DNA from: Pseudogymnoascus verrucosus
Lineage: Eukaryota
Strand: one strand, 5' to 3'
DNA: 64,000 bases
Assembly: GCA_001662655.1 (NCBI GenBank)
Contig: KV460207.1
In this document: in pieces, positions 413-21,759 of the stretch
Position numbering within the stretch: position 1 is the stretch's first letter
Layout: every line of letters starts with the position of its first letter
The notes under the pieces: model-generated
The model's input: only the letters and a program-made list of their open reading frames with translations
Told to the model about the DNA's origin: nothing
Databases searched by the model: none
Translations under genes and position numbers: made by a program

Positions 413-1549
413 CTAAAAGATAGAAAGGATATTCGGAGGACTACACTCCAGAGTTAGCTACTTTTCATTGCGGTCACATTAGCCACTCCACATAAGCTTA
501 CCTAGCTACACCCCCGGTAACATTACACGGCTCACTGGTCACGAAGAAAGTGTATCTCTTCGTCGCTTCGCAATGTTTCGATAGCGCCTCAAGGTGGAAA
601 AGCTCTCCAATCGGCATCCCCCAGCCACCAAGCAAGACCTCATGCAGAAAGTAATCCTTCTGCGGAGGATAGCATTCGAAGGAAGGAGCATCGCCTCCAG
701 CCTACACACTAGAATATTAGCACCAACCATGATTTCATAATATAACCAATCAAAGCCAACTATCAAAGAACATACCGCAGCAAAATGATTATCCCATAAG
801 AACTCCAACATCTCCTCGCTCTGCTCTAATCCACTGAGCTGTGGTGGGCCCTCCCTCAATGCATGGAACCTCTTCTTCTCCTCATCGAGCTCTTCAAACG
901 CAGCGAACCACCCCGACCTTATAAGCAAAATATCACCGCGCCTAAACTCAGTACCCTGGAACGCCGCCACCTCCTTCAGCTGCCCCAAAGTAATCGAGCC
1001 CGTTGCAAATGGGTTGTAATCCGGCGACCCGCCCGTCTCTTTCCTCCATCTGTGGAAATCAAGCAATACTCCCCTTCCAACAATCCCCTTCTCGGCCATA
1101 TTATGTATCCCCAACTTATCCCCCGCTCCCTCTCCCACAATCTCTTGTTCTGTAGTGCCATTATAAAACAGCCTCTCCTTCTGGTACCCAAAGTGCCGTA
1201 GCCCATCCCACTGCGAGCTACACTGTGAGTTAAAGCTCCAGGTATCGTCACACACAACGCGAGGCGGAGCTTTCATGTAGACCTCGTGGTGGAAGGCGGC
1301 TCGGGCAAAAAATGGCGGGCAGAAGGAGCCGCGGGGAGTGTTCAAAGACCAATTTAGGGAGATGCGGTGGCCAGTGATGATGTTTTCGCGGGCGGCAAGG
1401 GCGACGAGGGGGGAGGTGAGTAGGTTGAGGGTGCCGAGTTCGTCGGAGGGGCCCCAGAGGCCCCAGGCTGAGTGGCGCGGGTGAGAAGGGGAGAGTGGGA
1501 GGGCGGAGAAGGGGGGAATATCTTTGAGGTTTCCATTTTGGGCTGCCAT
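413..1549 (-). CDS. Putative cyclase / kynurenine-formamidase-like metal-dependent hydrolase (3 exons: 1549-776, 701-502, 440-413; ~333 aa)
   Basis: Motifs AWGLWG..DELGTLNLL, SQWDGLRHF, GIVGRGVLLD, GDILLIRSG. Splicing at GT-AG sites restores the typical C-terminus LHEVLLGGWGMPIGELFHLE...TFFVTSEPCNVTGGVASPPNILSIF*. Confidence 0.85.
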
Positions 1550-2130
1550 TGTAGAGGAAATAAAAAACTCAATGATATAAGTATTGCTAAATATTACTCC
1601 GTGTTGCTGATTTGGTTTGTGGAATTGTTTTGATTTTAGAAACCCTTCAATGAGGGGTAACCCGAGGAAGCCATGTGGGCTGTGGCAGCTTTCACAACAT
1701 GCCCCTCAACCCATCCATGTTACCCCACGGGGAGATACGATTTGGTCGGATCCTCGACGATATTTCCGCAGCAATCCGAAGATACAACCGTACAACGCCC
1801 GTCGCCGGTAATAACATGTACTCTCTTGGCGCTTCTCCATGTTTTGTCCAAGAACCCCGCATTATGGGGGTATTCGGGTGTACTAGTGCAAGATTGGAGA
1901 ATTACTACTTGGCCGTTCCGTGGCAATACTCCGAACATTGGGGAAGTCAAAAGGTTCCCTTTGCCGAAAATAACCTCCTTCTTCATACATTATGGGTACC
2001 TTTTCATTTTCCTTTTCCCGCTTTGAAGTAGAGTTCATTTATAGCCTAGGGGTGCCGTCCATCTCGAAACAAAATCTGACGGATACTATTCTTCACACCT
2101 AAGAACGAATTGTTACAACAAACCGCTACA

Positions 2131-3238
2131 ATGCCAGGCCTACAAAGAATCAAAACTGAGTTGACCGACTTGCTCGGCATCAAGCATCCAATTCTCCTTG
2201 CTGGTACCTTTCCTCTTATCCTCCCTTCATCCCCGTCACGACCCACTAACCTGATTTCCAGGAATGGCACGGACATCCTCCGGTCTCCTCGCCGCCGCCG
2301 TTTCCAACGCTGGCGGCTGTGGTGTAGTAGGCGGCCTGAACTATACCCCAGAACAACTATTCTCCATCCTCAATGACCTCAAGGCAAACCTAAATGACCC
2401 TTCCCTTCCTTTTGGTGTGGATCTCGCCCTTCCTAAAATCGGCGCTGGCGCTCGAAAGACCAACCACGATTATACCCACGGACAGCTCGATGCTCTTATT
2501 GACGTCACCATCAATAGTGGGGCAAAGCTATTCGTGTGCGCTGTGGGAGTCCCACCCAAACATATCGTGGATAAATTGCATGCGAATGGCATTCTGGTTA
2601 TGAATATGGTGGGTGCCCCGAAGCATGCGAGGTATGCGCTTGAGGCAGGGGCAGATATGGTTTGCGCCCAAGGTGGCGAGGGGGGTGGGCACACTGGGGC
2701 GATCGCGACGAGCATTTTAATCCCGGCCGTCGTGGACGCGGTGCAAGGCTACAAATCTCCCATGACGGGCTGTACGCCACTGGTGATAGCCGCTGGCGGA
2801 ATACGCGACGGGCGCTCTCTGGCTGCGGCCCTGATGATGGGTGCAGCCGGCGTATGGGTCGGCACGCGCTTTGTGGCATCTGTGGAGGCGGGATGCTCGG
2901 AGGTGCACAAAGTCGAAGTTACGACTGCGACGTTTGACGACACAGTGCGAACGCTTGTGGTGAGTGGGCGGCCGATGCGGGTTAAGGCAAACGAGTACAT
3001 CAAGGCGTGGGAGAGGCAGCCGGAGAAGATTTTAGAGCTTACGCAGGCCGGAATTGTGCCGTATGAGAAGGATGTTGAAGACGGAGTGGAGGCCGACAGG
3101 CCATTTTTGATGGGGCAAGTTGCCGCGGTGATTGGAGAGATCGAGCCGGCAGGGAAGATTGTGGAGGATATGGTCGATGGGGCTGTTAAGATGCTGTCGA
3201 AAGGATCAAAGTTCATAGGGCTTGGGGCGCGGTTGTAA
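2131..3238 (+). CDS. Nitronate monooxygenase / 2-nitropropane dioxygenase-family (FabK-like) FMN oxidoreductase (exons 2131-2203, 2262-3238)
   Basis: Motifs LTDLLGIKHPILLAGM, LAAAVSNAGG, AQGGEGGGH, IAAGGIRDGR, GVWVGTRF. Ends in -ARL (PTS1). Confidence 0.9.
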
Positions 3239-3491: not shown

Positions 3492-6107
3492 TTAAAAACC
3501 CGCCCTCATATCTTCTCCCTCCCCACTCTCCAGTATACTTCCTCCAAGATACATCCCAAACTGACTCTCCACATTCAGCAGCCCTTTTAACATATCCCAT
3601 CGAATATCGCTTGAGTCAAAGTTAAGATAATCGGGCGACGGTCCGCCCTCCTCGCAGACCGCAGGAGCATCGGTATTTATCCCGGCGATGTCGTTGTTGT
3701 GACTGAGGTCATACATACTAGAATTGACGCAGACAGTTGGCGGGGATAAGTGTAAGAGAGGTACGGCAGTGGAGTGGACGAACGGAGTAAGGTTTGTCAG
3801 GAGTAGTTGGTGTTCTGGGGTTGAGCTGTATGCGTCAGGCTGATGTGCTGAAAGTGGCGGCGATGGTGCATGGTCTGTACCCTCCCATGGTGCCTCTAGG
3901 TTAAAACTGAGCGTGTCGGCGAGAACGTGCAGAACTTCGAGGGACTTCTCTGCAGAAATGTGCCCCTTAGCAGCAGCCCGGAGCCCGCGCCACAGTATTA
4001 TGATATGCTGTGCGAGGGTGGCAGTCTGGGAGTCGGTAGCGTTATTACCATCAGCATTATGCATGACGTCTTCGGGGAGCGTCGAGCGCAACCGGTACGC
4101 AAGCAATAGTACGATGCTAGCACGGACAATATGCGTGCAAACCATGTCATTACAGCGGTGTGAGAAGACGTCTTCCCAATTCTCTGTGCGGGCCACGCGC
4201 TGCATAATACTTGCGGTGAGGGTGGCAATCTCGATGCTTTTCTTAAGGCAGAAGCTGCGCATGGCCCCGGAGAGGGTGCTATCCGTGAAATGGCGGCTGA
4301 AGAGGGCAAGGCGGGCCTGTTGGCCGACAAAGACGAGTTTGAGAGTTGATGGCTCAATGGCCGAGGTTTCGGACGGGTCGCAGAGGCCACCAGGGTACTT
4401 CTGCCAGCACGCAAAGAGTTGAGCGTCAATCCTCTTCATGGTTTCCATGTCACTGTCTTCGTAGTGCGAGAGAGCGCCAAACTGGATGATAGCGTCAAGA
4501 TTGATGACGACGGAGATGGAGGCGCGGAAAAAGTCGAACGATTCTGATGCCGTCGTGCCCTTGTTATCAATTTCATTCGGTAGATCCACGTCGCAGTCTT
4601 CGTCTAGGAGCGAAACGGGTCGCCCACATGTCAGGGCAACGACACGGTCCACTATATAGGCGCCCCAGAAGAGGCGGTTTCGCGACTCGATTTCAACGTT
4701 AAAGAGTTGATGCGGCGATGGCCGCTTGTGGAGGCCGAGGTCCTGTATTATGCGCGAGGTGATGCCTGTGATGACCCAACAGGGGCTCGGGAGAGAGGCA
4801 CCCATCAAATAGACACTCATAAGAAGGCTGATAATTGCATCGTCCAACGTGTAGCGTGCCTTGATCAGCCCTCTGCCATGATATTTTCGGGCGGCCTCAA
4901 AGAACTCCCATCCATTCTTCATCTGACGACCGCTATTGTGTCGGACTTCGGCTAAATCAGACATTTGTGCGCCAACAGCCCAAACCATCATAAGGATGGA
5001 GAAGTCGGCCACAATCTGGTCATGCTCGTAGTGTACAGGAGACCCCGTGTAAATGCGCTGGAACTTTATGAGGATCGAAGGCCAGTACAACATGGGTGTA
5101 TGTGCTTGGACACTGTTTCTGTACACCTCCAGCAGCTTAGCTCCGAGGGGCTGCGGTGGTAGCTGTGACCGCAACTCTGCTGATAAATTTGACTGCACAG
5201 CATCCTGACGGATCGTCTCCAAAGAAGGGCTCCACAACGCCCTTGATGATGGGAGTTCGTATCCTAGCTGTTGCACATATTCACGTACATTGTCTAGGAA
5301 GACCATTTCAGACGTTGCGCCAAAGAAGTGATGCGCCTTCTTCCCATCACCTGTGACATAGGACTGTAGACTCGAGGTGCCGTGGGTGGAGCGTCGCCTT
5401 CTCCGTAAACGGTCCGTATCTATGATCTCAGATGCAGATCCGCTGTCTGAAAGCACATCGGCCGTTCTCTTTGTTCCAGTAATAGAGCAACTTGGTGTCG
5501 GCACTCGAGTTTGAGACCCCTGGCGGGTATGGTTACTTTGGGATCCCGTTCCATTCACGCGTGCCGCACCCGGAATATTTTCAACTCGCTCTGATACTTT
5601 CTTTAAAGTCTGTTCAAGCTCACGAAGGCGCATCCTAATAGGCACGACATAAATACATGGTCTCCCAAGGGATGTTGAAACATGGATTTGAAAAGAACGA
5701 GCCATACTTACTCAGAAATCGCACTTGGTCCAGTGGATCTTGAAGCATCCGCCACCTCACACACAATGCCCGCAGAGACACACGAAGAGCATTGTCCTGT
5801 CCGTGACGTGTCACACTAGATACGAAAGAATCAGTCAACGTTAAGTCCCTTAGGATACCAATCGGCCATTTTCTTGGATGAAAGTTAAAACCTATGACTT
5901 TGCACATACCTTAGTTTTCCTAGTCCGGCACGCGTTACATGCTCTGCTCTCGCGCTGCCTCCTAAAAGGGCGCCTGAAGCGTGGTTGCTGGTTTTCTTCT
6001 GTACTTGGCAATCGAACAGCAGCTGAGACAGCACTAGGGGCAGCAGAAGGAGCATCAGACGGATCGTCAGTAGAGCGAAGATTCGGCACCAAGATTTCTG
6101 CCGCCAT
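3492..6107 (-). CDS. Zn2Cys6 transcription factor with fungal-specific TF (middle homology) domain (exons ~6107-5910, 5815-5712, 5634-3492)
   Basis: The spliced zinc cluster reads CNACRTRKTK|CDTSRTGQCSSCVSAGIVC. Later motifs are IQDLGLH, RNRLFWGAYIVDR..ALTCGRP and DVDLP. Confidence 0.9.
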
Positions 6108-11006: not shown

Positions 11007-13018
11007 TTAGAGCTCCTCAAGGCGCCCGTTCTTACCCTCATAGGGCCTCCCTGCCTCTCCCTCTGCAGCAACCGCGGCAACAACGACTCTCTCTTGGGGG
11101 GGGCTTTTTCTTAAAACTTTCTCTGTCGAGCTCTTCTTCTTCTGCACATAATCCCTCAAATACTCGTCATCTAAGTAAAACGTCACATCATCTTCTGGAC
11201 TGAACTCTTCTTTCGTAAACCCATTTCCGAGGTATCCCCACCGATTCCCACTCACATACTCAATTTCATAATCCTCATACTTCGGTTCCGCCATGTGGTC
11301 GAAAAACGCTAATCGGCTCCCTGGCCACATCACCAGCGGGCCATCTGTGGTTCCCTGCTTGAACCAACTCGAACACGGATCTACCCACGCCGTGCGCTTC
11401 AAATACATGGCCGCATGCTCTCCAAAATCCTTCGTAGCTCCCTCCTTCGGTGAGAGTCGCCTTATGTGCTCCTTACGCATCTTGCGAATGACTTGGAGGA
11501 AGTGCTTCGTTCCCAGTGTGAGCAGCGGCAGCACAGAGCCCTGTGCAACCGGAGAAAAGGGACCAGAGTACATGAAGTAGTTTGGAACGTTTGGGACGCC
11601 TACTGCAGCATACGAGAGTGGAAGCCCCGTCCATTTCTCTGATATAGATTTCCCGTCGAGGCCGATAATAGGGAACTTCGGGCGGAAGGAGGTGTCGAAG
11701 CCTGTGGCGCAAATGATCACGTCGACTTCAACTTCGGCACCGTCGGCAGTAATGAATCCATTAGGAGTAATGCCGCCAATAGTATCGGTATAGCAGGTCG
11801 TTTTCTCGCCGACGAGGCACTCGAGGTAGCCATTACCGGGCGTAGGGCGACGACAACTGACGTTGAAGTCTTTAGGAATAATCTTGTCGATGAGACCGGG
11901 GTTGTTGCTAAGCTTAATGCACATCTCCTTGTACGAGAACTCGTTCGCTTCGTCCGACTCTTCGGTGTTGCGCAGCACGAGCTTAAATCGCTGATTTAGC
12001 TCCAGCTCAATCATCTTCCTGTATTCTCTGTACTTCTCCGGGTCGTGGGCCCATTCTGCCTTCTGCTCATCTGTGTACTGAAAGTTTGCGCCATTGGGTC
12101 CTGCAAACTTCTGCCCAAAACCTGCTGTGATCCAGGTGGGACTGCGTACCCATGTATACAACTTTGAAACGTCTTTATAGATGGAGGCGACGACTTGGAC
12201 GCCGGAGCTTCCAGACCCTATCACAGCAACGCGCTTGCCCTTGAGGTCATAGCCCGTCTCATAACGCGCTGTGTGAAACATCTTTCCCTTGAACGTATTG
12301 AGTCCTGGGATTGTTGGCCATTTCCATGCACTGCATTCTCATATTAGTTTGCTTCTCAAATAGCATGGAAATGCAACACATACTTCAGAAATCCCGTGCC
12401 GTTCAATAATAAATCTGCATCCTCATGCCATTCCTTTACCACATTTCCCGCCTGATCTTTCTGCGCCAGGCTAATAATCCACCTTGACCTTTCTTCCTTC
12501 CACACGGCCTCCTTCACTTCCGTGCGCAGCGTAATATACTTATACATATCCTCCTTTGTCGCAATCATCTTCATATATTCCCAAATCTCCTTCGAGCCCG
12601 AGTAATAGCTTGTCCAATTTGGATTTGGGCACCAGGCAAACTGATAGCTAGCACTGGGAATATCACATGCACACCCGGGGTAGCGATTCTCAAACCATGT
12701 CCCACCAACATCCGAATTCTTTTCAAAAACCGCAAACTCCACGTTGAGTTGTGGGAGCGTTTGCACGGCATGATGCAGAAAATCAATGCCGGCGGCGCCG
12801 GCGCCGATGACCACGACTTTGAAGGGTTCAGCAGGAGGCTCATTGATCATGAGCTCGTTAATGCGGTAGCCGTTCTCAGAAACGGCATCATAGGAGGGGT
12901 GGTAGGCTGGGCGTTGCTTGGACGATGGGTGAGCTTCTGTGGTGTTGCTGCCAATGCGTAGGCCTTCCGGACGCACGAAAGTTGAAGAGTTGACTTCAAA
13001 GTCGCTGTAGTCTCCCAT
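11007..13018 (-). CDS. Flavin-containing monooxygenase, Baeyer-Villiger (StcW/MoxY-like) type (exons 13018-12384, 12330-11007; ~652 aa)
   Basis: GAGAAG FAD motif, GGTWFENRYPGCACD, FKGKMFHTARY fingerprint, GSGSSG NADPH motif, ATGFD, CSSWFK. Confidence 0.9.
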
Positions 13019-13696: not shown

Positions 13697-14681
13697 TCAC
13701 AGCTTTGTTGCCGCACTCTCGATAGACAAAAGCGCCCTCCCGTTATTCAACACCTCCTGTCCTTCTACGCTCGTCCTAAACAACACCTCCTGCAACCCAT
13801 TCTCTCTCCCCATTTTCCACATCTCTACTAACAGCGTGTCTCCCGGATACACAACCTTCTTAAACCTAGCCTGAAACTCCCTCAATCTTCTCCCATCTCC
13901 TCCTGCAAATGTACTCACCACCGCGTGTGCGCTCATGTTCCACGTACAAAGCCCATGCAAAATAATCCCCTTAAATCCCGCTTTCTTCGCCACCACACCA
14001 TCACAGTGTAAAGGATTATAATCCCCATTCAGTCGATATAAATGCGCCGTCTCTTTGGTTGTAACTTGCGTATATACCGCGTCTGACTGCCGCTTCGGTG
14101 GCACATATACCGTCTCCTTCTCTTTTTTCGGGCCGCCCCAGCCGCCTTGCCCAACAGCAAAGCTTTGTCGTAGAATGCGGCAGTACTTTGTGCCAGTGAG
14201 GGTATCCACGAGCACTGCTTCGGTCTCAGTAATCATTCCTGCGGGTCCCTTGTCTGCGACGCCGAGACAGGTAATCTGCAGCTCAAATGCGTGGTCGGTG
14301 GAAGAGGCGGGGAGTGGTTGGAATATTTGGATGTGGCGCTGGCCATCAAGGACGCGGGTTTGGTCAACGGGGGGGACACCTGGGATGGCAGGGGTGCGTG
14401 TTGTGGTATAATAGTCGATAATGCTTTGGTAGGAGCCTTTGAATTGCAGGATCACTGGGTATGTAGGGAACGACTGGAAGTCTGGGTGGAGCTCCTGAGG
14501 ATTTGTTAGATTGCGAGATTTTTTAGGACACCTAGGAGGTAAGACAAACATTTAGAAACTGTGACTCGTAGGCTTTGCATCCGATGCTCGTGGAAAAAAG
14601 GAGGGAGTCGCGCTTGTTCCATGAGCAAGGGACACTAGGGAACTTGAATCCTGCGCCAGGCAGCTTCACAGGTGAGGCCAT
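13697..14681 (-). CDS. MaoC-type (R)-specific enoyl-CoA hydratase 2 / peroxisomal dehydratase (exons 14681-14550, 14494-13697; ~309 aa)
   Basis: Hydratase-2 motif YRLNGDYNPLHCD, plus ILHGLCT and ARF..VVYPGDTL. Ends in -TKL (PTS1-like). Confidence 0.9.
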
Positions 14682-15397: not shown

Positions 15398-17121
15398 TTA
15401 TGCCGTCTTTGTGGGCCACGTAGTCCTCCTCCTCGCTCTAACGTACAAATTCATGGGCCTAATCAGCTGGAAATCCGGATCATAATCAACAACCCCATGA
15501 CTTTCCTTACTAAACTCGTACCTGTATAGTAGCTCGGAAAACAAGATTTTGACCTCTTGCAGCGCAAAATTAAATCCAATGCATCCTCTTGGCCCTGCTG
15601 CAAATGGGACATAGGCGCACCGATGTCTCTTTTTCACAGCCTCCGTGTCCCACCTTGCAGTATCAAAGCGCAGTGGGTTCTCCCATATGTCGGGGTTAGT
15701 ATGAATTGCATACAACGCAGGGACTAGCACAGCATTGGCGGGCAGGTGCCAGCCGCCGGGGAGGATGACGTCCGTTTTTGTAGTTCGGGCAGGCTGGAAG
15801 GAGGGATTATGGAGGCGCTGGGTCTCCTTGACGAATTTGTCTAGATATTTGAGATTCGCGGCGTATTCGGGGGTCCAGGTGATATCGTTGTTGATGTCCG
15901 AGTCGATTAACTCTTGGAGGAGGCGCTCTTGCTCTCCGGGGTAGGTGATGATGGAGTAGATCATCCAGGAAAGTAGTGCAGAGGTCGTCGTAAAGCCTGC
16001 GGCTGTCATGATGACCATGTTGGGTAATATGAGGTCTTTTGGTAGCTTTCGGCCGTTCTCGTCAATGGCGCGATTGAGGTAATCGACCACACAGGTTGCT
16101 TTCAAGGCAGCATCGGCCATGGGCAGATCAGGTTTGTCGCGGGAGTCTACTGTGTCCATCGCACCTTGTAGCCTAGAGTAGGTCCGCTGTTGCATATCCT
16201 TCAGCCTCTTCGGGTCTCCAAAGGGTAGTGCCCCATACCAATCACCACGGGCCGTCACTTTCTTATTCAAAAGTAGCATATCTGCAATGTCGTGAATTAT
16301 CGGATCGACGGGAGAGTCTGGTTCGTTGAAGTGGCCGAAATCGAGGCCCAAGCAGAACTTTCCGATGGTCTGCGCTGCAAGCTTGTGCATGTATTGATAG
16401 ACGTTCAAAGTTTCACCGGTCGCATCTATCGCATCAAAAACCTTGAATGACCCCCGCACTGTTTGCTCCATAAGAGGAGTATAATGACGGATTGCGTTTG
16501 GGCTAAGTGATGGGGGCAGAAATTTATGATTTTGTTGCCAGGCCTTTGTTTCTGTGTCACCAATGAATATTGCCGTGTTGTCTTTGATCCCCCATAGAGG
16601 ATGGTCGGAAGTAATCTTTTTAGTGAAGTATATGGATTCGCTGAAAAGGTATCCAGCAATCACTGGGTCATCGGTATGATAATTGACCTTGCCCATATTG
16701 ACAGCCTTAACAACGGATCCATATTTCCTCAACAGACGAATAATATTCCCGAGATGGTCCGGAAATATCTCATAGTATGACCCAACGCCTGGAAACCCCT
16801 TGGGTCCAAGTACTTCGCGAACAGGTTGACCATTAATAGTGATTCCTATAGGAGTGGTGGCATCGAAAATGGCCCCCAGGTCTTCTATCGCACCATGTTG
16901 ATCTGTTTGAAAACAGATACCTATATATTATTTTAGCGATAGCTCTGAGCGACGGGGAACTGACAAGTTTAATCCTTACCAGTTGGTTCAATAATGTGAA
17001 ATTCGAGACCAAGATTGGTTTTCAGCGTCTTTAGATCCAGGATTGAATCCACATCAACCTCGCGTGTTGAGGGAGGCGTAACTCCAACCAGATAGAACAC
17101 CCGCGTTCTGTTGACAGTCAT
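15398..17121 (-). CDS. Cytochrome P450, probably CYP540-like, without N-terminal membrane anchor (exons 17121-16980, 16920-15398; ~554 aa)
   Basis: Heme motif FAAGPRGCIG, K-helix ETQR, I-helix AAGFTTTS. The reconstructed N-terminus MTVNRTRVFYLVG...GITINGQPVREVLGPKGFPGVGSYYEIFPDHLGN has no transmembrane helix. The family name is from recall. Confidence 0.9.
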
Positions 17122-17716
17122 GATACTGAATTTGTAGCTTCTTTCCTGTTTCTGAAATATTAAACTGGGTTACAGAATAGAGCTTTAAGAAGATCAATCT
17201 TCTCTGATTATAAAATGCGAGAACGATTTATTAGATTCAAGTGTAGATATGTCCTTGAGATAGATAATAAAATGAAATACCCGTGACGTACATGGATCCC
17301 TTTCACTACCGTGCTACACTTACAGGTATTCACAATTCCCATGCCAAGTGGTCCATAAACTAGTTATACCCTTGGTTATACAAGCACATTTTGCCTCGGA
17401 AAGTTGCCGCGGAAAGTTTTATAGTTCTTGATATGGAGAGTCTAGGTTAGCAGAAACGATATCCCAAGGTACCATGTTTAGTGCATTGGGGTGGAGTCTG
17501 GTACTGTCGTGCCCTGAACTCCGCGGGCTCTTCTCGGCAGGGGCAATTGACCGGGATGATGTACGCTTCACGTGTGGGACTAAAATTATTCAACGTATTA
17601 TGATTCTCATACAATATGCTGCTCAACGACATGACATCCGGGGAGAGCATTATTTATTGCTTGCTCTCGAGGTTACATTGCCATTTTTCATTCATACAGG
17701 ACTACAACAATATACA

Positions 17717-19251
17717 ATGACCACATCGTACACATTGGAAGAAGTGGGCAAACATGTCACTGATAAAGACTGCTGGATTGTTATACACAATAAAGGTAAT
17801 TAGGAGCTATAATAGACTCCATGCTCTGCTAGTTGAATAAGCGGTTCTGACAGCTCATAGTTTACGATGTAACAAGTTACTTCGAACTACATCCTGGTGG
17901 CGCAGAAGTCCTTCAAGAATATGGCGGTCTCGATGCCACGGAGCCATTTGAAGATGCAAGCCACTCTGATAGTGCCTGGGAAACAATGAACTCACTCATA
18001 GTGGGCGAGCTGGCAGAAGAAGTGAGTTGGCAGTTTTTCATTGGAGCTGTTATATAGGATACCAGCTAATTCCTTTTCTTGCAGTACCGACAAGCAGATC
18101 ATGTTTATTACAAAACCACACATGAACACGTTGAAGCCGCTCCTATATTAGCAAAAACTTCGACAGCGAAAAGGATTAAAAGCTTGTTCACCAAAGCTCT
18201 TGCTCTTAGCTTAACGGGAAGCCTTGTTTACTTTGGAAGGCCACTCCTCTCCACCCGTTGGCTGTCAACTGGTCTTCTCACCAATCAACTTCTACGCATC
18301 CGTATCGGGAAAACTTCTACGGACTTTTGGTATGGCTACCTCAGTTCCGTAGCCACAACTTCCCTGCTCGTGATGAGCGCTGGCTATCTCGCCGTGAATA
18401 AACTCAGCAGCGGCGGCGGCCATGGCGGACCCAGCTTGCCCGCTCGCTCAAAGCCCACGTTTAGAACATTGAAGAAGCCCTCGACTATCACGCCACCTGA
18501 AGCACCGATTCTAGCCACTCGTTCGTATCGAAAATTCCCGCTTGTGCACAAGAAAGAGCTCTCACCAAACGTGTATCTACTAGTATTCTCCTTGCCATCG
18601 CCCACGGCTGTCTTACCCCTGCCAACAGGCCAGCATGTCTCCGTGATGGCCGAGATTAACGGTCAGAGTGTCAGCCGCTCATACACACCGATATCAAACT
18701 ATAAAGATCCCGGCGTGATCGAGCTGGTCGTCAAGGTGTACCCGACTGGCCTTCTCACACCGCACCTCGGCAATCTGAACGTCGGCGACGCCGTTGGTTT
18801 CCGTGGGCCGATCGGCGCTATGAAATACAAATCTGGGTTAAGCAAGCGTATTCTCATGATCGCCGGTGGCACCGGCGTAACGCCCATGTATCAAGTCATC
18901 CGGGCAATCTGCGAAGATGAAGCAGATGACACAACAGTGACGCTGCTCTATGCGAACAATAACTTGGAGGATATTCTCATGAAGGAGAAACTGGATGCGT
19001 GGGCGGCGGCGCATCCAGGGAAATTTTCAGTCTCCTACGTTTTAGTAAATCCCCCGAATGGGTGGAAGGATGGGACGGGGTTTGTGTCGAAAGAGATGAT
19101 TCAGCAGAAGTTAGAGGGGGGTCTGGATACAAAGGTCATGCTTTGCGGGCCGCCGGGGATGGTGAAGATTATGAAGACGCATCTTTCTGACATGGGGTTT
19201 CCGGTTCCGGGGGCGATTTCAAAGGCGAGTGATCGTGTGTTTGTATTTTAG
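17717..19251 (+). CDS. Cytochrome b5 - NADH:cytochrome b5 reductase fusion protein (exons 17717-17795, 17861-18021, 18085-19251; ~468 aa)
   Basis: The b5 domain YTLEEVGKH..DCWIVIHNK|VYDVTSYFELHPGG...DATEPFEDASHS splices in frame to a hydrophobic linker. The reductase domain has GQH, RSYTPIS, GGTGVTP and CGPPGM. Confidence 0.9.
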
Positions 19252-19469: not shown

Positions 19470-19527
19470 GGGTGTGATGGGTGCGACGGGTGCGACGGGT
19501 GCGACGGGTGCGACGGGTGCGACGGGT
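19470..19527. repeat. 9-bp minisatellite (GGGTGCGAC)x~6
   Basis: Read directly, upstream of the thiolase gene. Confidence 0.9.
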
Positions 19528-19920
19528 TCTCCATGAGCACGCCCCATGTCCCACATCAACTGGGACCGCCAGACCCGCATTTTACCCCGTACTCTGTACT
19601 CCGCATTTTCGGTCTTGTTGAAGTAACGAGCCAATCAGTCATGGCGACTCTTCCTCATGTGTGTAACCGTCCCTTTACCGCGGGGATGTCAACCGCGGGC
19701 TCGGTATCTATGAGCTCGGCAGAACAATCCAATCTTGACTTCGGCTCTGCCTATGACGGTATCCAGCTGTCCTGGCTGAGATGCGAGCTCATATTCCCAT
19801 CCCCGGAGTGCACATAGTGGAGCATATTTCTCGAGCATGAAGGTCTTGCCTCACCAGTCTCACTTTCGCCAATTGATTAACCTCTTGTTGGATAATACTT
19901 GTGTAGCAACTTTGATAATA

Positions 19921-21350
19921 ATGGCCGCTCTTCAAAAGGTATACGTCGTCGGTGTGGGACTGACCAAATTCGTCAAGCCAAGAGGACTCGTCGACTATCC
20001 CGACCTGGGCTTCGAGGCTGGTGTCAAAGCCCTTTTGGATGCGGGAATAAACTATGATGAGGTCCAGCAAGGCATTGCTTGCTATGTATATGGCGACAGC
20101 ACATGCGGCCAACGTGTTTTCTACCGCTTTGGTGAGCTTGTTCCCGGCGAAACATTTTTATCAAGTGTAGATGCTAATCTACCCTCTTCTCCGTTTCAGG
20201 CATGACCCAAATCCCCATCTATAATGTAAATAACAATTGCTCGACCGGCAGCTCCGGCATCTACCTTGCACGGCAGCTCATCTCCCACAACGCCGCAGAT
20301 TGCATCCTCGTCGTCGGCTTCGAAAAGATGTTCCCCGGCTCCCTCAAGACAAACTTTCCCGACCGAACACCCCCCAATGACCGCACCGTTGCCATGATGC
20401 GCGCCACTCGCGGCTTTTCTGACACCACTCCCCGCGCGCCTCAAACTTTTGGCAATGCTGGCAGAGAGTACATGGAGAAGTACGGCGCGACAGCCGATGA
20501 CTTCGCAGAGATCGCCCGTATCAACCATGCGCATAGCGCGAAGAATCCGTACTCACAGTTCCGCGACGTCTATAGCCTTGAGCAGATCAAGAACTCACCG
20601 ATGGTTCACGCGCCCCTCACAAAGCTTCAGTGCTGCCCGACTTCTGACGGCGGCGCCGCGGCCGTTATTGTATCCGAGAAGTGGCTTGAAGCGCACCCGC
20701 ATCTCAAGAGCCAAGCAATACTCATCGCCGGCCAGCATATGGCAACCGACAGCCCGGCGTTATACTCGCGATCGGCTATCGACCTCGTAGGGATGGAGAT
20801 GACACGCACAGCAGCGCGTGTAGCCATGTCCGAGGCAGGAATTACAGCCGCAGATGTCAAAGTCTGCGAGCTGCACGACTGCTTCTCCGCAAATGAGATG
20901 ATCACTATAGACGGTTTGGGGCTCTCGGCTCCGGGCAAAGCGCACGAGCTTGTTCGCGCCGGCGGAATCACGTTTGGTGGGCAGGTAGTGGTGAATCCGA
21001 GCGGTGGCCTGATTAGCAAGGGACACCCGCTGGGAGCGACGGGACTGGCGCAGTGTGCAGAGCTGTGCTGGCATTTGAGAGGATGGGCAACGAATCGCCA
21101 TGTGGAGGGCGCGAGGTATGCACTGCAGCATAACCTTGGGTTGGGAGGGGCGGCGGTGGTGACAGTGTATAAGAGGGCGGATGGGAAGTTGAATGGGCTG
21201 GTAGAAGATGTGGCGGGGGTTAGTAAGTCAAAGTATAATCCTGCTGTTGAGGCGAGAGAGCCGACGCAGGAGGATGTGGCGACGGTTATTAGTCGAACAA
21301 AATCAAGTGAGTGGATGGTTACAGAGAAGAAAATACAGGCCCAGTTGTAA
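19921..21350 (+). CDS. SCP2/SCPx-type thiolase without SCP2 domain (exons 19921-20131, 20200-21350)
   Basis: [32 protein letters not shown] (catalytic Cys), [32 protein letters not shown]. Ends in -AQL. Confidence 0.92.
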
Positions 21351-21759
21351 GCGGCTCGTATTCAAGAAGGTTGGGTTGCTGAAATGCAGACGGTATTGAT
21401 GTATGTTAGAGTATTTGAAGACTTCATCTACTCTTCTATGTATCAATCACTCTGTAATAGTTAGCTAGTATAGCTTTCGAGGATTCAACTTCTACTAGGT
21501 TGCTACGTACAACGTGATTCGCGTGAGTTGCCAGTATTTTAAATCAATACGATAGTGCATGATTCTTAATAAAGTGTTTTGTGCGTTGAATGTTCAAACA
21601 TTAACACCGCCCACAACGCATTTCACAAGAGGATGGTTAACACTCTGAGAGAATCACAGTATCCTTCGGTCTAGATTCTCCAATCCAGTAACCCATTCAT
21701 CAAGGATTCTTCGAACGCCCTGCCCAGAACATTTGTTTATAAAATTGTCATGAGGATGA

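What the first reader, a model, noticed from the sequence alone, without database searches (positions are those of the whole stretch)
15398..19251. Anchor-less P450 head-to-head with its own cytochrome b5/b5-reductase fusion: candidate CPR-independent, NADH-driven P450 system
Seen: the P450 ATG (17121) and the fusion ATG (17717) diverge across about 595 bp. The fusion joins a heme b5 domain (HPGG), two hydrophobic segments and an FAD/NADH reductase in one spliced frame; the ORF track misses the b5 exons. Established: microsomal fungal P450s normally have an N-terminal TM helix and use NADPH-CPR, while b5 and b5R are usually separate proteins. I recall a report of an Aspergillus nidulans CYP540-family enzyme paired with such a fusion that (R)-beta-hydroxylates medium-chain fatty acids, but I could not verify this here. 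Inference: this is an equivalent two-component module placed in a larger, different pathway.
Basis: partly seen in the sequence, partly recalled or inferred. Interest (0 to 1): 0.8.

Follow-up and report, generated by a model that had tools for sequence, protein, structure and literature searches.

The report
Fungal P450 with fused electron donor
This is a relative of a fungal enzyme pair described in 2025 (a soluble P450 powered by a fused cytochrome b5/b5-reductase), but here it sits among different fat-breakdown genes, which hints at a different, still unknown acid substrate.

Summary
The two head-to-head genes encode a 554-aa anchor-less P450 and a 468-aa cytochrome b5–linker–b5-reductase fusion. 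Both spliced models equal annotated Pseudogymnoascus proteins. They are 58.8% and 46% identical to Aspergillus nidulans CYP540A2 and CBBR, an NADH-driven (R)-β-hydroxylase of medium-chain fatty acids (PMC12462446). The carboxylate-orienting Ser and Gln are kept, and 27 of 36 related loci show the same head-to-head pair.

The context looks new. This P450 falls in a well-supported subclade (100/99). Its cluster lacks the published β-hydroxy-acid dehydrogenase. Instead it holds a Baeyer-Villiger monooxygenase, a stand-alone hydratase-2, an SCP2-type thiolase and a Zn2Cys6 regulator. That order recurs in a metagenome fungus, and BVMO + hydratase + P450 + fusion recur in two Cladophialophora species. 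The genome also keeps a canonical pair with the dehydrogenase on another contig.

The likely role is NADH-driven β-hydroxylation of a carboxylic acid, perhaps branched or ketone-derived, feeding peroxisomal chain shortening. Substrate, expression and binding were not shown. Verdict: new variant of a known system, modest interest.

The parts
15398..17121 (-). CYP540-family P450, 554 aa; exons 17121-16980 and 16920-15398; soluble N-terminal ~80-aa alpha/beta domain; I-helix AGFTTT, Ser421, Cys494, Gln532
17122..17716 (.). Divergent promoter, 595 bp; holds a 26-bp block (about 17391-17416) conserved in L019, with CCTCGG (Far-type site) and CCGCGGAA
17717..19251 (+). CBBR: cytochrome b5 - two-helix linker - NADH b5 reductase, 468 aa; exons 17717-17795, 17861-18021, 18085-19251
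13697..14681 (-). Stand-alone MaoC/hydratase-2 (MFE-2 type; hydratase-2 motif present; ends -TKL, Cladophialophora homologues -SRL/-SNL); start approximate
11007..13018 (-). Baeyer-Villiger monooxygenase-like flavoprotein, 652 aa (FxGxxxHxxxY, two GxGxxG); best solved relatives are cyclohexanone monooxygenases (E 1e-30)
19921..21350 (+). SCP2-type (type-1) thiolase (NNNCSTG, HDCF, GHP motifs; ends -AQL); one intron at about 20131-20198 that contigs of relatives skip
3492..6107 (-). Zn2Cys6-type transcription factor (Fungal_trans; start approximate); 65% identical homologue next to the BVMO in L019
7470..9544 (-). MFS transporter; absent between BVMO and TF in L019, so an optional member; ends approximate
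2131..3238 (+). Nitronate-monooxygenase-family flavoprotein ending -ARL; membership of the cluster not shown; start approximate
539..1705 (-). Cyclase-family (PF04199) putative metal hydrolase, a possible ester/lactone hydrolase; membership not shown; gene limits approximate

Best explanation
The two genes form a soluble two-component monooxygenase of the CYP540/CBBR kind. NADH reduces the FAD domain, electrons pass to the fused b5 heme and then to the P450, and the P450 hydroxylates the beta-carbon of a free carboxylic acid held by Ser421 and Gln532. This was shown for the A. nidulans homologues and is inferred here (about 0.9 for the redox pairing, about 0.75 for beta-hydroxylation). The pair belongs to a distinct subclade that serves a dedicated catabolic cluster. 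There the (R)-3-hydroxy acid is not passed to a clustered beta-HDH. After CoA activation by an unlinked ligase it is handled by the (R)-specific hydratase-2 and the SCP2-type thiolase, probably in peroxisomes. The BVMO opens a ketone, upstream or downstream, to an ester or lactone. The substrate is most likely a lipid-like acid that ordinary beta-oxidation handles poorly (methyl-branched, or derived from a ring or ketone). All pathway steps are inferred from gene content.
For: Identity to CYP540A2 is 317/539 (58.8%) and to AN8920 CBBR 207/446 (46%), with T363, S431 and Q542 conserved (paper numbering checked on two 557-aa relatives). The paper shows NADH preference, co-purification, and activity falling to 5.5% with CPR. 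A head-to-head fusion hit appears in 27 of 36 related loci. In the tree, the window P450 lies in a 7-row clade (100/99) apart from CYP540A2 and from the genome's own C33 paralogue. L019 keeps thiolase-CBBR-P450-MaoC-BVMO-TF in the same order at 65-85% identity. C. bantiana tags run BVMO 04017, MaoC 04018, P450 04021, CBBR 04022, and C. psammophila has the same four within six consecutive accessions. The only full-length beta-HDH hit in the genome is on C33. The cluster's thiolase and hydratase have other paralogues elsewhere in the genome. Clade-specific I-helix changes are V352M and G354A. An orthologous promoter block is conserved.
Against: No substrate, activity or transcript was observed for this pair. 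Absence of beta-HDH was checked only in this genome and within about 10 kb in L019. Two Cladophialophora genes between MaoC and P450, and the genes beyond CBBR, were not identified. Thiolase linkage rests on the window, its congeners and 1 of 36 loci. BVMO + MaoC linkage is known for only 4 of the 7 clade rows. The active-site motifs (SFQP, FQLIRP) are almost the same as in CYP540A2, which fits an unchanged substrate, and the C33 beta-HDH could act in trans. The cluster has no acyl-CoA ligase or 3-hydroxyacyl-CoA dehydrogenase. Of 8 CBBR residues in the paper's predicted interface, 5 are changed or unaligned. The CCGCGGAA count in the window is not above chance (4 versus 1.9 expected; 15 of 100 shuffles reach it).
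Confidence: 0.55

Rival explanations
1. The pair is a redundant isozyme of CYP540A2/CBBR for straight medium-chain fatty acids. The product is oxidised by the C33 beta-HDH in trans, and the neighbours are loosely co-regulated lipid-catabolism genes (for example a BVMO for methyl ketones from decarboxylated 3-oxo acids).
For: Identity is 58.8% with the key residues kept. A Far-type CCTCGG site lies in this promoter and in the C33 promoter. The paper notes second, possibly redundant clusters. Distant BVMO-like genes (26-48%) also lie within 10 kb in 5 other loci of 36.
Against: The P450 lies in a separate supported clade with fixed I-helix changes. Homologous BVMO and MaoC stay linked across two fungal classes. 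The genome already has a canonical cluster.
Confidence: 0.3
2. The cluster is biosynthetic: it tailors a lipid into a secreted lactone or hydroxy acid that the MFS exports.
For: A P450, a BVMO, a transporter and a pathway-specific regulator are typical of tailoring clusters (general knowledge; gene content).
Against: None of the 42 window ORFs scanned is a PKS, NRPS or terpene synthase (the cluster lies at the contig start, so a core gene beyond it cannot be excluded). Hydratase-2 and SCP2 thiolase are degradative types. L019 adds a crotonase, an SDR and a zinc dehydrogenase.
Confidence: 0.08
3. The fusion is membrane-anchored by its linker helices, or its halves are transcribed apart, and the P450 relies on CPR/NADPH.
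For: The linker has two long helices. The genome has CPR-family FAD domains (8 PF00667 matches). Several predicted interface residues differ.
Against: The A. nidulans CBBR has more hydrophobic helices yet is soluble, and CPR supports only 5.5% of activity. Full three-domain fusions are annotated in many fungi. The pairing is kept in 27 of 36 loci.
Confidence: 0.05

Closest known systems
Aspergillus nidulans CYP540A2 (AN8919) + CBBR (AN8920), Kojima et al. 2025, PMC12462446
   Same: Domain layout, head-to-head genes, no membrane anchor, ~80-aa N-terminal domain, Thr363/Ser431/Gln542, two-helix linker; 58.8% and 46% identity.
   Different: Separate subclade; no clustered beta-HDH; linked instead to BVMO, hydratase-2 and SCP2 thiolase; Gly-rich stretch replaces the linker's D194/E198; I-helix V to M and G to A.
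Canonical P450-CBBR-beta-HDH cluster of the same genome (G000:C33, about 347.5-354.3 kb)
   Same: Head-to-head pair at 63% and 51% identity; CCTCGG-type site in the promoter.
   Different: Carries the 3HCDH-type beta-HDH; no BVMO, MaoC or thiolase hit in the 26 kb fetched.
Peroxisomal MFE-2 hydratase-2 / SCPx thiolase route
   Same: Same enzyme families: best solved relatives are 3KH8/1S9C and 6HRV.
   Different: Here they are stand-alone extra copies clustered with a P450. A branched-substrate role is documented for vertebrate SCPx (passage), not for these proteins.
CYP102/CYP505 self-sufficient fatty-acid hydroxylases; mammalian Ncb5or
   Different: CYP102/505 are fused to CPR and hydroxylate sub-terminal carbons. 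Ncb5or has a CS hinge and no known P450 partner.

Membership tests
CYP540 family | >40% identity to a named member; >55% for subfamily (thresholds recalled) | tested here: met
   58.8% to CYP540A2 (P0256). Subfamily assignment is tentative because CYP540B sequences were not compared.
CYP540/CBBR system | P450 without signal or TM anchor, with an extra N-terminal domain | tested here: met
   Hydropathy maximum 1.03; folded alpha/beta domain at residues 4-76.
CYP540/CBBR system | Single-chain b5-linker-b5R with heme-ligand histidines and FAD/NADH motifs | tested here: met
   H37 and H61, RSYTP, GGTG, CGPP; at gene-model level.
CYP540/CBBR system | Head-to-head adjacency | tested here: met
   27 of 36 related loci.
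CYP540/CBBR system | Carboxylate-orienting Ser431 and Gln542 | tested here: met
   S421 and Q532; contexts match the mutagenesis primers.
CYP540/CBBR system | Predicted salt-bridge interface residues | tested here: inconclusive
   P450 keeps 8 of 12; CBBR keeps E34 and R205 and has E57D, with 5 of 8 changed or unaligned. The reference interface is itself a prediction.
CYP540/CBBR system | NADH-dependent P450 reduction and (R)-beta-hydroxylation | not testable with these tools
   Needs purified proteins.
Published MCFA cluster (P450-CBBR-beta-HDH) | Clustered beta-HDH gene | tested here: not met
   No match on C2; the only full-length match of 6 is on C33.
Published MCFA cluster (P450-CBBR-beta-HDH) | Induction by C8-C10 fatty acids | not testable with these tools
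   No RNA holder was listed.

The most novel reading that the evidence does not exclude
A conserved, undescribed fungal catabolic pathway. A BVMO cleaves a branched or cyclic ketone (for example an isoprenoid ketone). A specialised soluble CYP540/CBBR then beta-hydroxylates the resulting branched acid, possibly at a position that blocks normal beta-oxidation. Hydratase-2 and an SCP2 thiolase finish chain shortening without beta-HDH. This would give an NADH-only P450 with new substrate scope.
Probability: 0.25. Interest if true: 0.6.

Novelty: new variant of a known kind. Interest (0 to 1): 0.36.

Why it matters
The electron-transfer design is known since 2025, so that part is not news. If the cluster reading holds, the CBBR-driven P450 module has been recruited into a second pathway in cold-soil and black-yeast fungi. 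It would offer a soluble, NADH-driven P450 with possibly different acid specificity. It would also give a natural variant for testing the paper's proposal that the CBBR linker loop gates the P450 pocket, since this fusion lacks the acidic loop residues.

Tried and rejected
- Complex prediction (P450 + CBBR 1-215 + 2 hemes): no verdict, score 0.00 in both runs; not evidence either way.
- RNA: no RNA holder listed among 24 runs. Four runs were laid. Three guessed-RNA runs of relatives covered only the thiolase region, and one unlabelled run showed no joints, so the P450 and CBBR junctions are untested.
- Fold of the N-terminal domain: its element order (beta-beta-alpha-beta-beta-alpha-beta) resembles a beta-grasp (recalled), but this is unconfirmed. 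Whole-model fold searches returned only P450s; Atlas, Pfam and PDB sequence searches gave nothing usable.
- Extending L019 beyond 10 kb was not possible, so NMO and cyclase membership stays open.
- Earlier scan notes were not available.
- Literature: six locus tags gave 0 papers; BVMO + sterol carrier protein + MaoC + gene cluster + fungus gave 0; a five-term Cladophialophora search gave 0; a CBBR search gave only the 2025 paper. The library lacks most subscription journals.
- The 1029-1190-aa database 'fusions' (P0283, P0284, P0301) were rejected as merged gene models, because the window has separate stops and starts.
- A Ltp2-type retro-aldolase role for the thiolase was judged unlikely: it is far closer to type-1 SCP2-thiolase (E 5e-141 versus 1e-26).
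- CCGCGGAA enrichment is not significant in the window and is modest in L019 (4 versus 0.78; 2 of 100 shuffles).

Full report
OBSERVATION. The coordinates are right. The P450 starts at 17121 on the minus strand and the fusion at 17717 on the plus strand, 595 bp apart. Both models equal stored proteins annotated in Pseudogymnoascus (P0121, P0297). Pfam finds b5, FAD and NAD domains in the fusion and P450 residues 87-527 in the other protein. The P450 N-terminus is not a membrane helix: hydropathy maximum 1.03, and a confident alpha/beta domain in AlphaFold2. The fusion linker has two helices that are less hydrophobic than those of the soluble A. nidulans protein.

WHAT IS KNOWN. Kojima et al. 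2025 (PMC12462446) is the key paper. I read parts 1-4 of 9 of the text (abstract to start of methods), passages, part 1 of 7 of supplement 1 and term searches of the supplements. Supplement 4 is a scan and figure content was not visible. The paper shows that CBBR passes electrons from NADH to CYP540A2, co-purifies with it, and drives (R)-beta-hydroxylation of C7-C12 acids; CPR gives 5.5% of activity. It reports 714 clusters in 662 strains, mostly head-to-head. Its table has 10 Pseudogymnoascus rows, 7 with beta-HDH, and no occurrence of 'Cladophialophora'. I obtained AN8919 and AN8920 as P0256 and P0241. The window proteins are 58.8% and 46% identical and keep Thr363, Ser431 and Gln542. A metagenome scan gave 36 loci from 87 pattern matches. 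Of these, 27 show the fusion head-to-head and 16 show beta-HDH (several loci are near-duplicates). Of the 9 without a fusion hit, 6 have under 1 kb upstream, 2 are P450 fragments and 1 is a distant P450. The headline is therefore already known.

WHAT DIFFERS. The window cluster has no beta-HDH; the only full-length match in the genome sits beside a second pair on C33. The neighbours are a hydratase-2, a BVMO, an MFS transporter, a Zn2Cys6 factor, an NMO-family gene and a cyclase-family gene on one side, and an SCP2-type thiolase on the other. L019 keeps thiolase, CBBR, P450, MaoC, BVMO and regulator in the same order at 65-85% identity, and continues with a zinc dehydrogenase, an SDR and a crotonase. 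It is the only one of the 36 loci with MaoC or thiolase. In C. bantiana the tags are 04017 (BVMO), 04018 (MaoC), 04021 (P450) and 04022 (CBBR). C. psammophila has the same four within six accessions, and C. immunda has BVMO, P450 and CBBR within seven. CBBR, BVMO and MaoC hits also share a 225,370-bp contig length in JGI data, which suggests but does not prove one contig. A 39-row IQ-TREE analysis (one locus, L045, dropped for in-frame stops; midpoint root for drawing only) puts the window P450 with these relatives in a 7-row clade at 100/99. Its sister group contains beta-HDH-linked P450s, including C33, and CYP540A2 lies elsewhere. Linkage to BVMO + MaoC is known for 4 of the 7 rows. Comparing 7 clade sequences with 53 others gave 21 diagnostic columns, including V352M and G354A beside the I-helix AGxTT motif.

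INTERFACE. Of the paper's predicted contacts, losses are often paired: R179Q with E63S, K192N with D35L, and K30D/R36T with E83A. R195-E34 and R491-E57(D) are kept. This was not tested statistically. K183 is kept without E63, a 99%-identical relative keeps K192, and the linker's D194/E198 are replaced by a Gly-rich stretch while their P450 partners remain.

REGULATION. A 26-bp block with CCTCGG and CCGCGGAA is conserved between the window and L019 divergent promoters, and CCGCGGAA recurs at the orthologous hydratase promoters. CCTCGG is the Far/CTF1 fatty-acid element (PMC5068947, passages). Counts in the window are not above chance, so these are candidate sites only.

MECHANISM. Shown here: gene structure, family membership, conserved catalytic residues and conserved neighbourhood. 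Inferred from the homologue: NADH to FAD to b5 to P450, and beta-hydroxylation of a free acid. Inferred from gene content: an (R)-specific hydratase-2 (specificity recalled) matches the (R) product and could take the place of beta-HDH after CoA activation. The SCP2 thiolase cleaves the 3-oxoacyl-CoA; in vertebrates this type acts on the branched cholesterol side chain (PMC7682436, passages). The BVMO converts a ketone to an ester or lactone. C-termini -TKL, -AQL and -ARL resemble peroxisomal signals (consensus recalled). No ligase or CoA-linked dehydrogenase is clustered, so the route needs outside genes. The substrate is unknown; branched or ketone-derived acids are my best guess. The main rival is a redundant medium-chain isozyme (0.3).

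VERDICT. A genuine CYP540/CBBR pair, a known system. It belongs to a subclade with a different conserved cluster that I did not find described (searches; listings only). Rated a new variant of a known kind, interest 0.36.

Noticed in passing
G000:C33:347546-354268 (L017, L018): A second, canonical P450-CBBR-beta-HDH cluster in the same genome (63% and 51% identical to the window pair).
   Followed up: partly
window 16890-17121 (P450 residues 1-80): The unexplained CYP540 N-terminal domain has a beta-grasp-like order of elements in the AlphaFold2 model; not confirmed by a fold search of the domain alone.
   Followed up: partly
window 11007-13018: Close BVMO homologues (about 67-76%) occur widely in Onygenales; whether they sit near CYP540 pairs was not checked.
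   Followed up: no
L039:2495-2977, L040:10001-10483: A 161-aa P450 fragment at 79% identity with no fusion upstream; possibly a decayed copy of this subclade.
   Followed up: no
window 19594-21365: Contigs from three runs of relatives (about 96% identical) cover only the thiolase gene and skip its 68-nt intron.
   Followed up: partly
window 15398-19251: Patchy distribution (Pseudogymnoascus and Chaetothyriales at about 70% P450 identity) could reflect horizontal transfer or differential loss; not tested.
   Followed up: no
window about 19480-19530: Short tandem repeat (9-bp unit, about five copies) between the fusion and the thiolase.
   Followed up: no
PMC12462446 supplement 1: The paper's residue numbers fit a 557-aa protein, 8 longer than the 549-aa AN8919 record, although its legend says 'shorter'.
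   Followed up: yes
window 22036-61484: The rest of the window looks like housekeeping genes: Fig1, an HSF-type factor, bile-acid symporter family, MFS, AIM24, kinesin, CP2 factor, oxysterol-binding protein.
   Followed up: no
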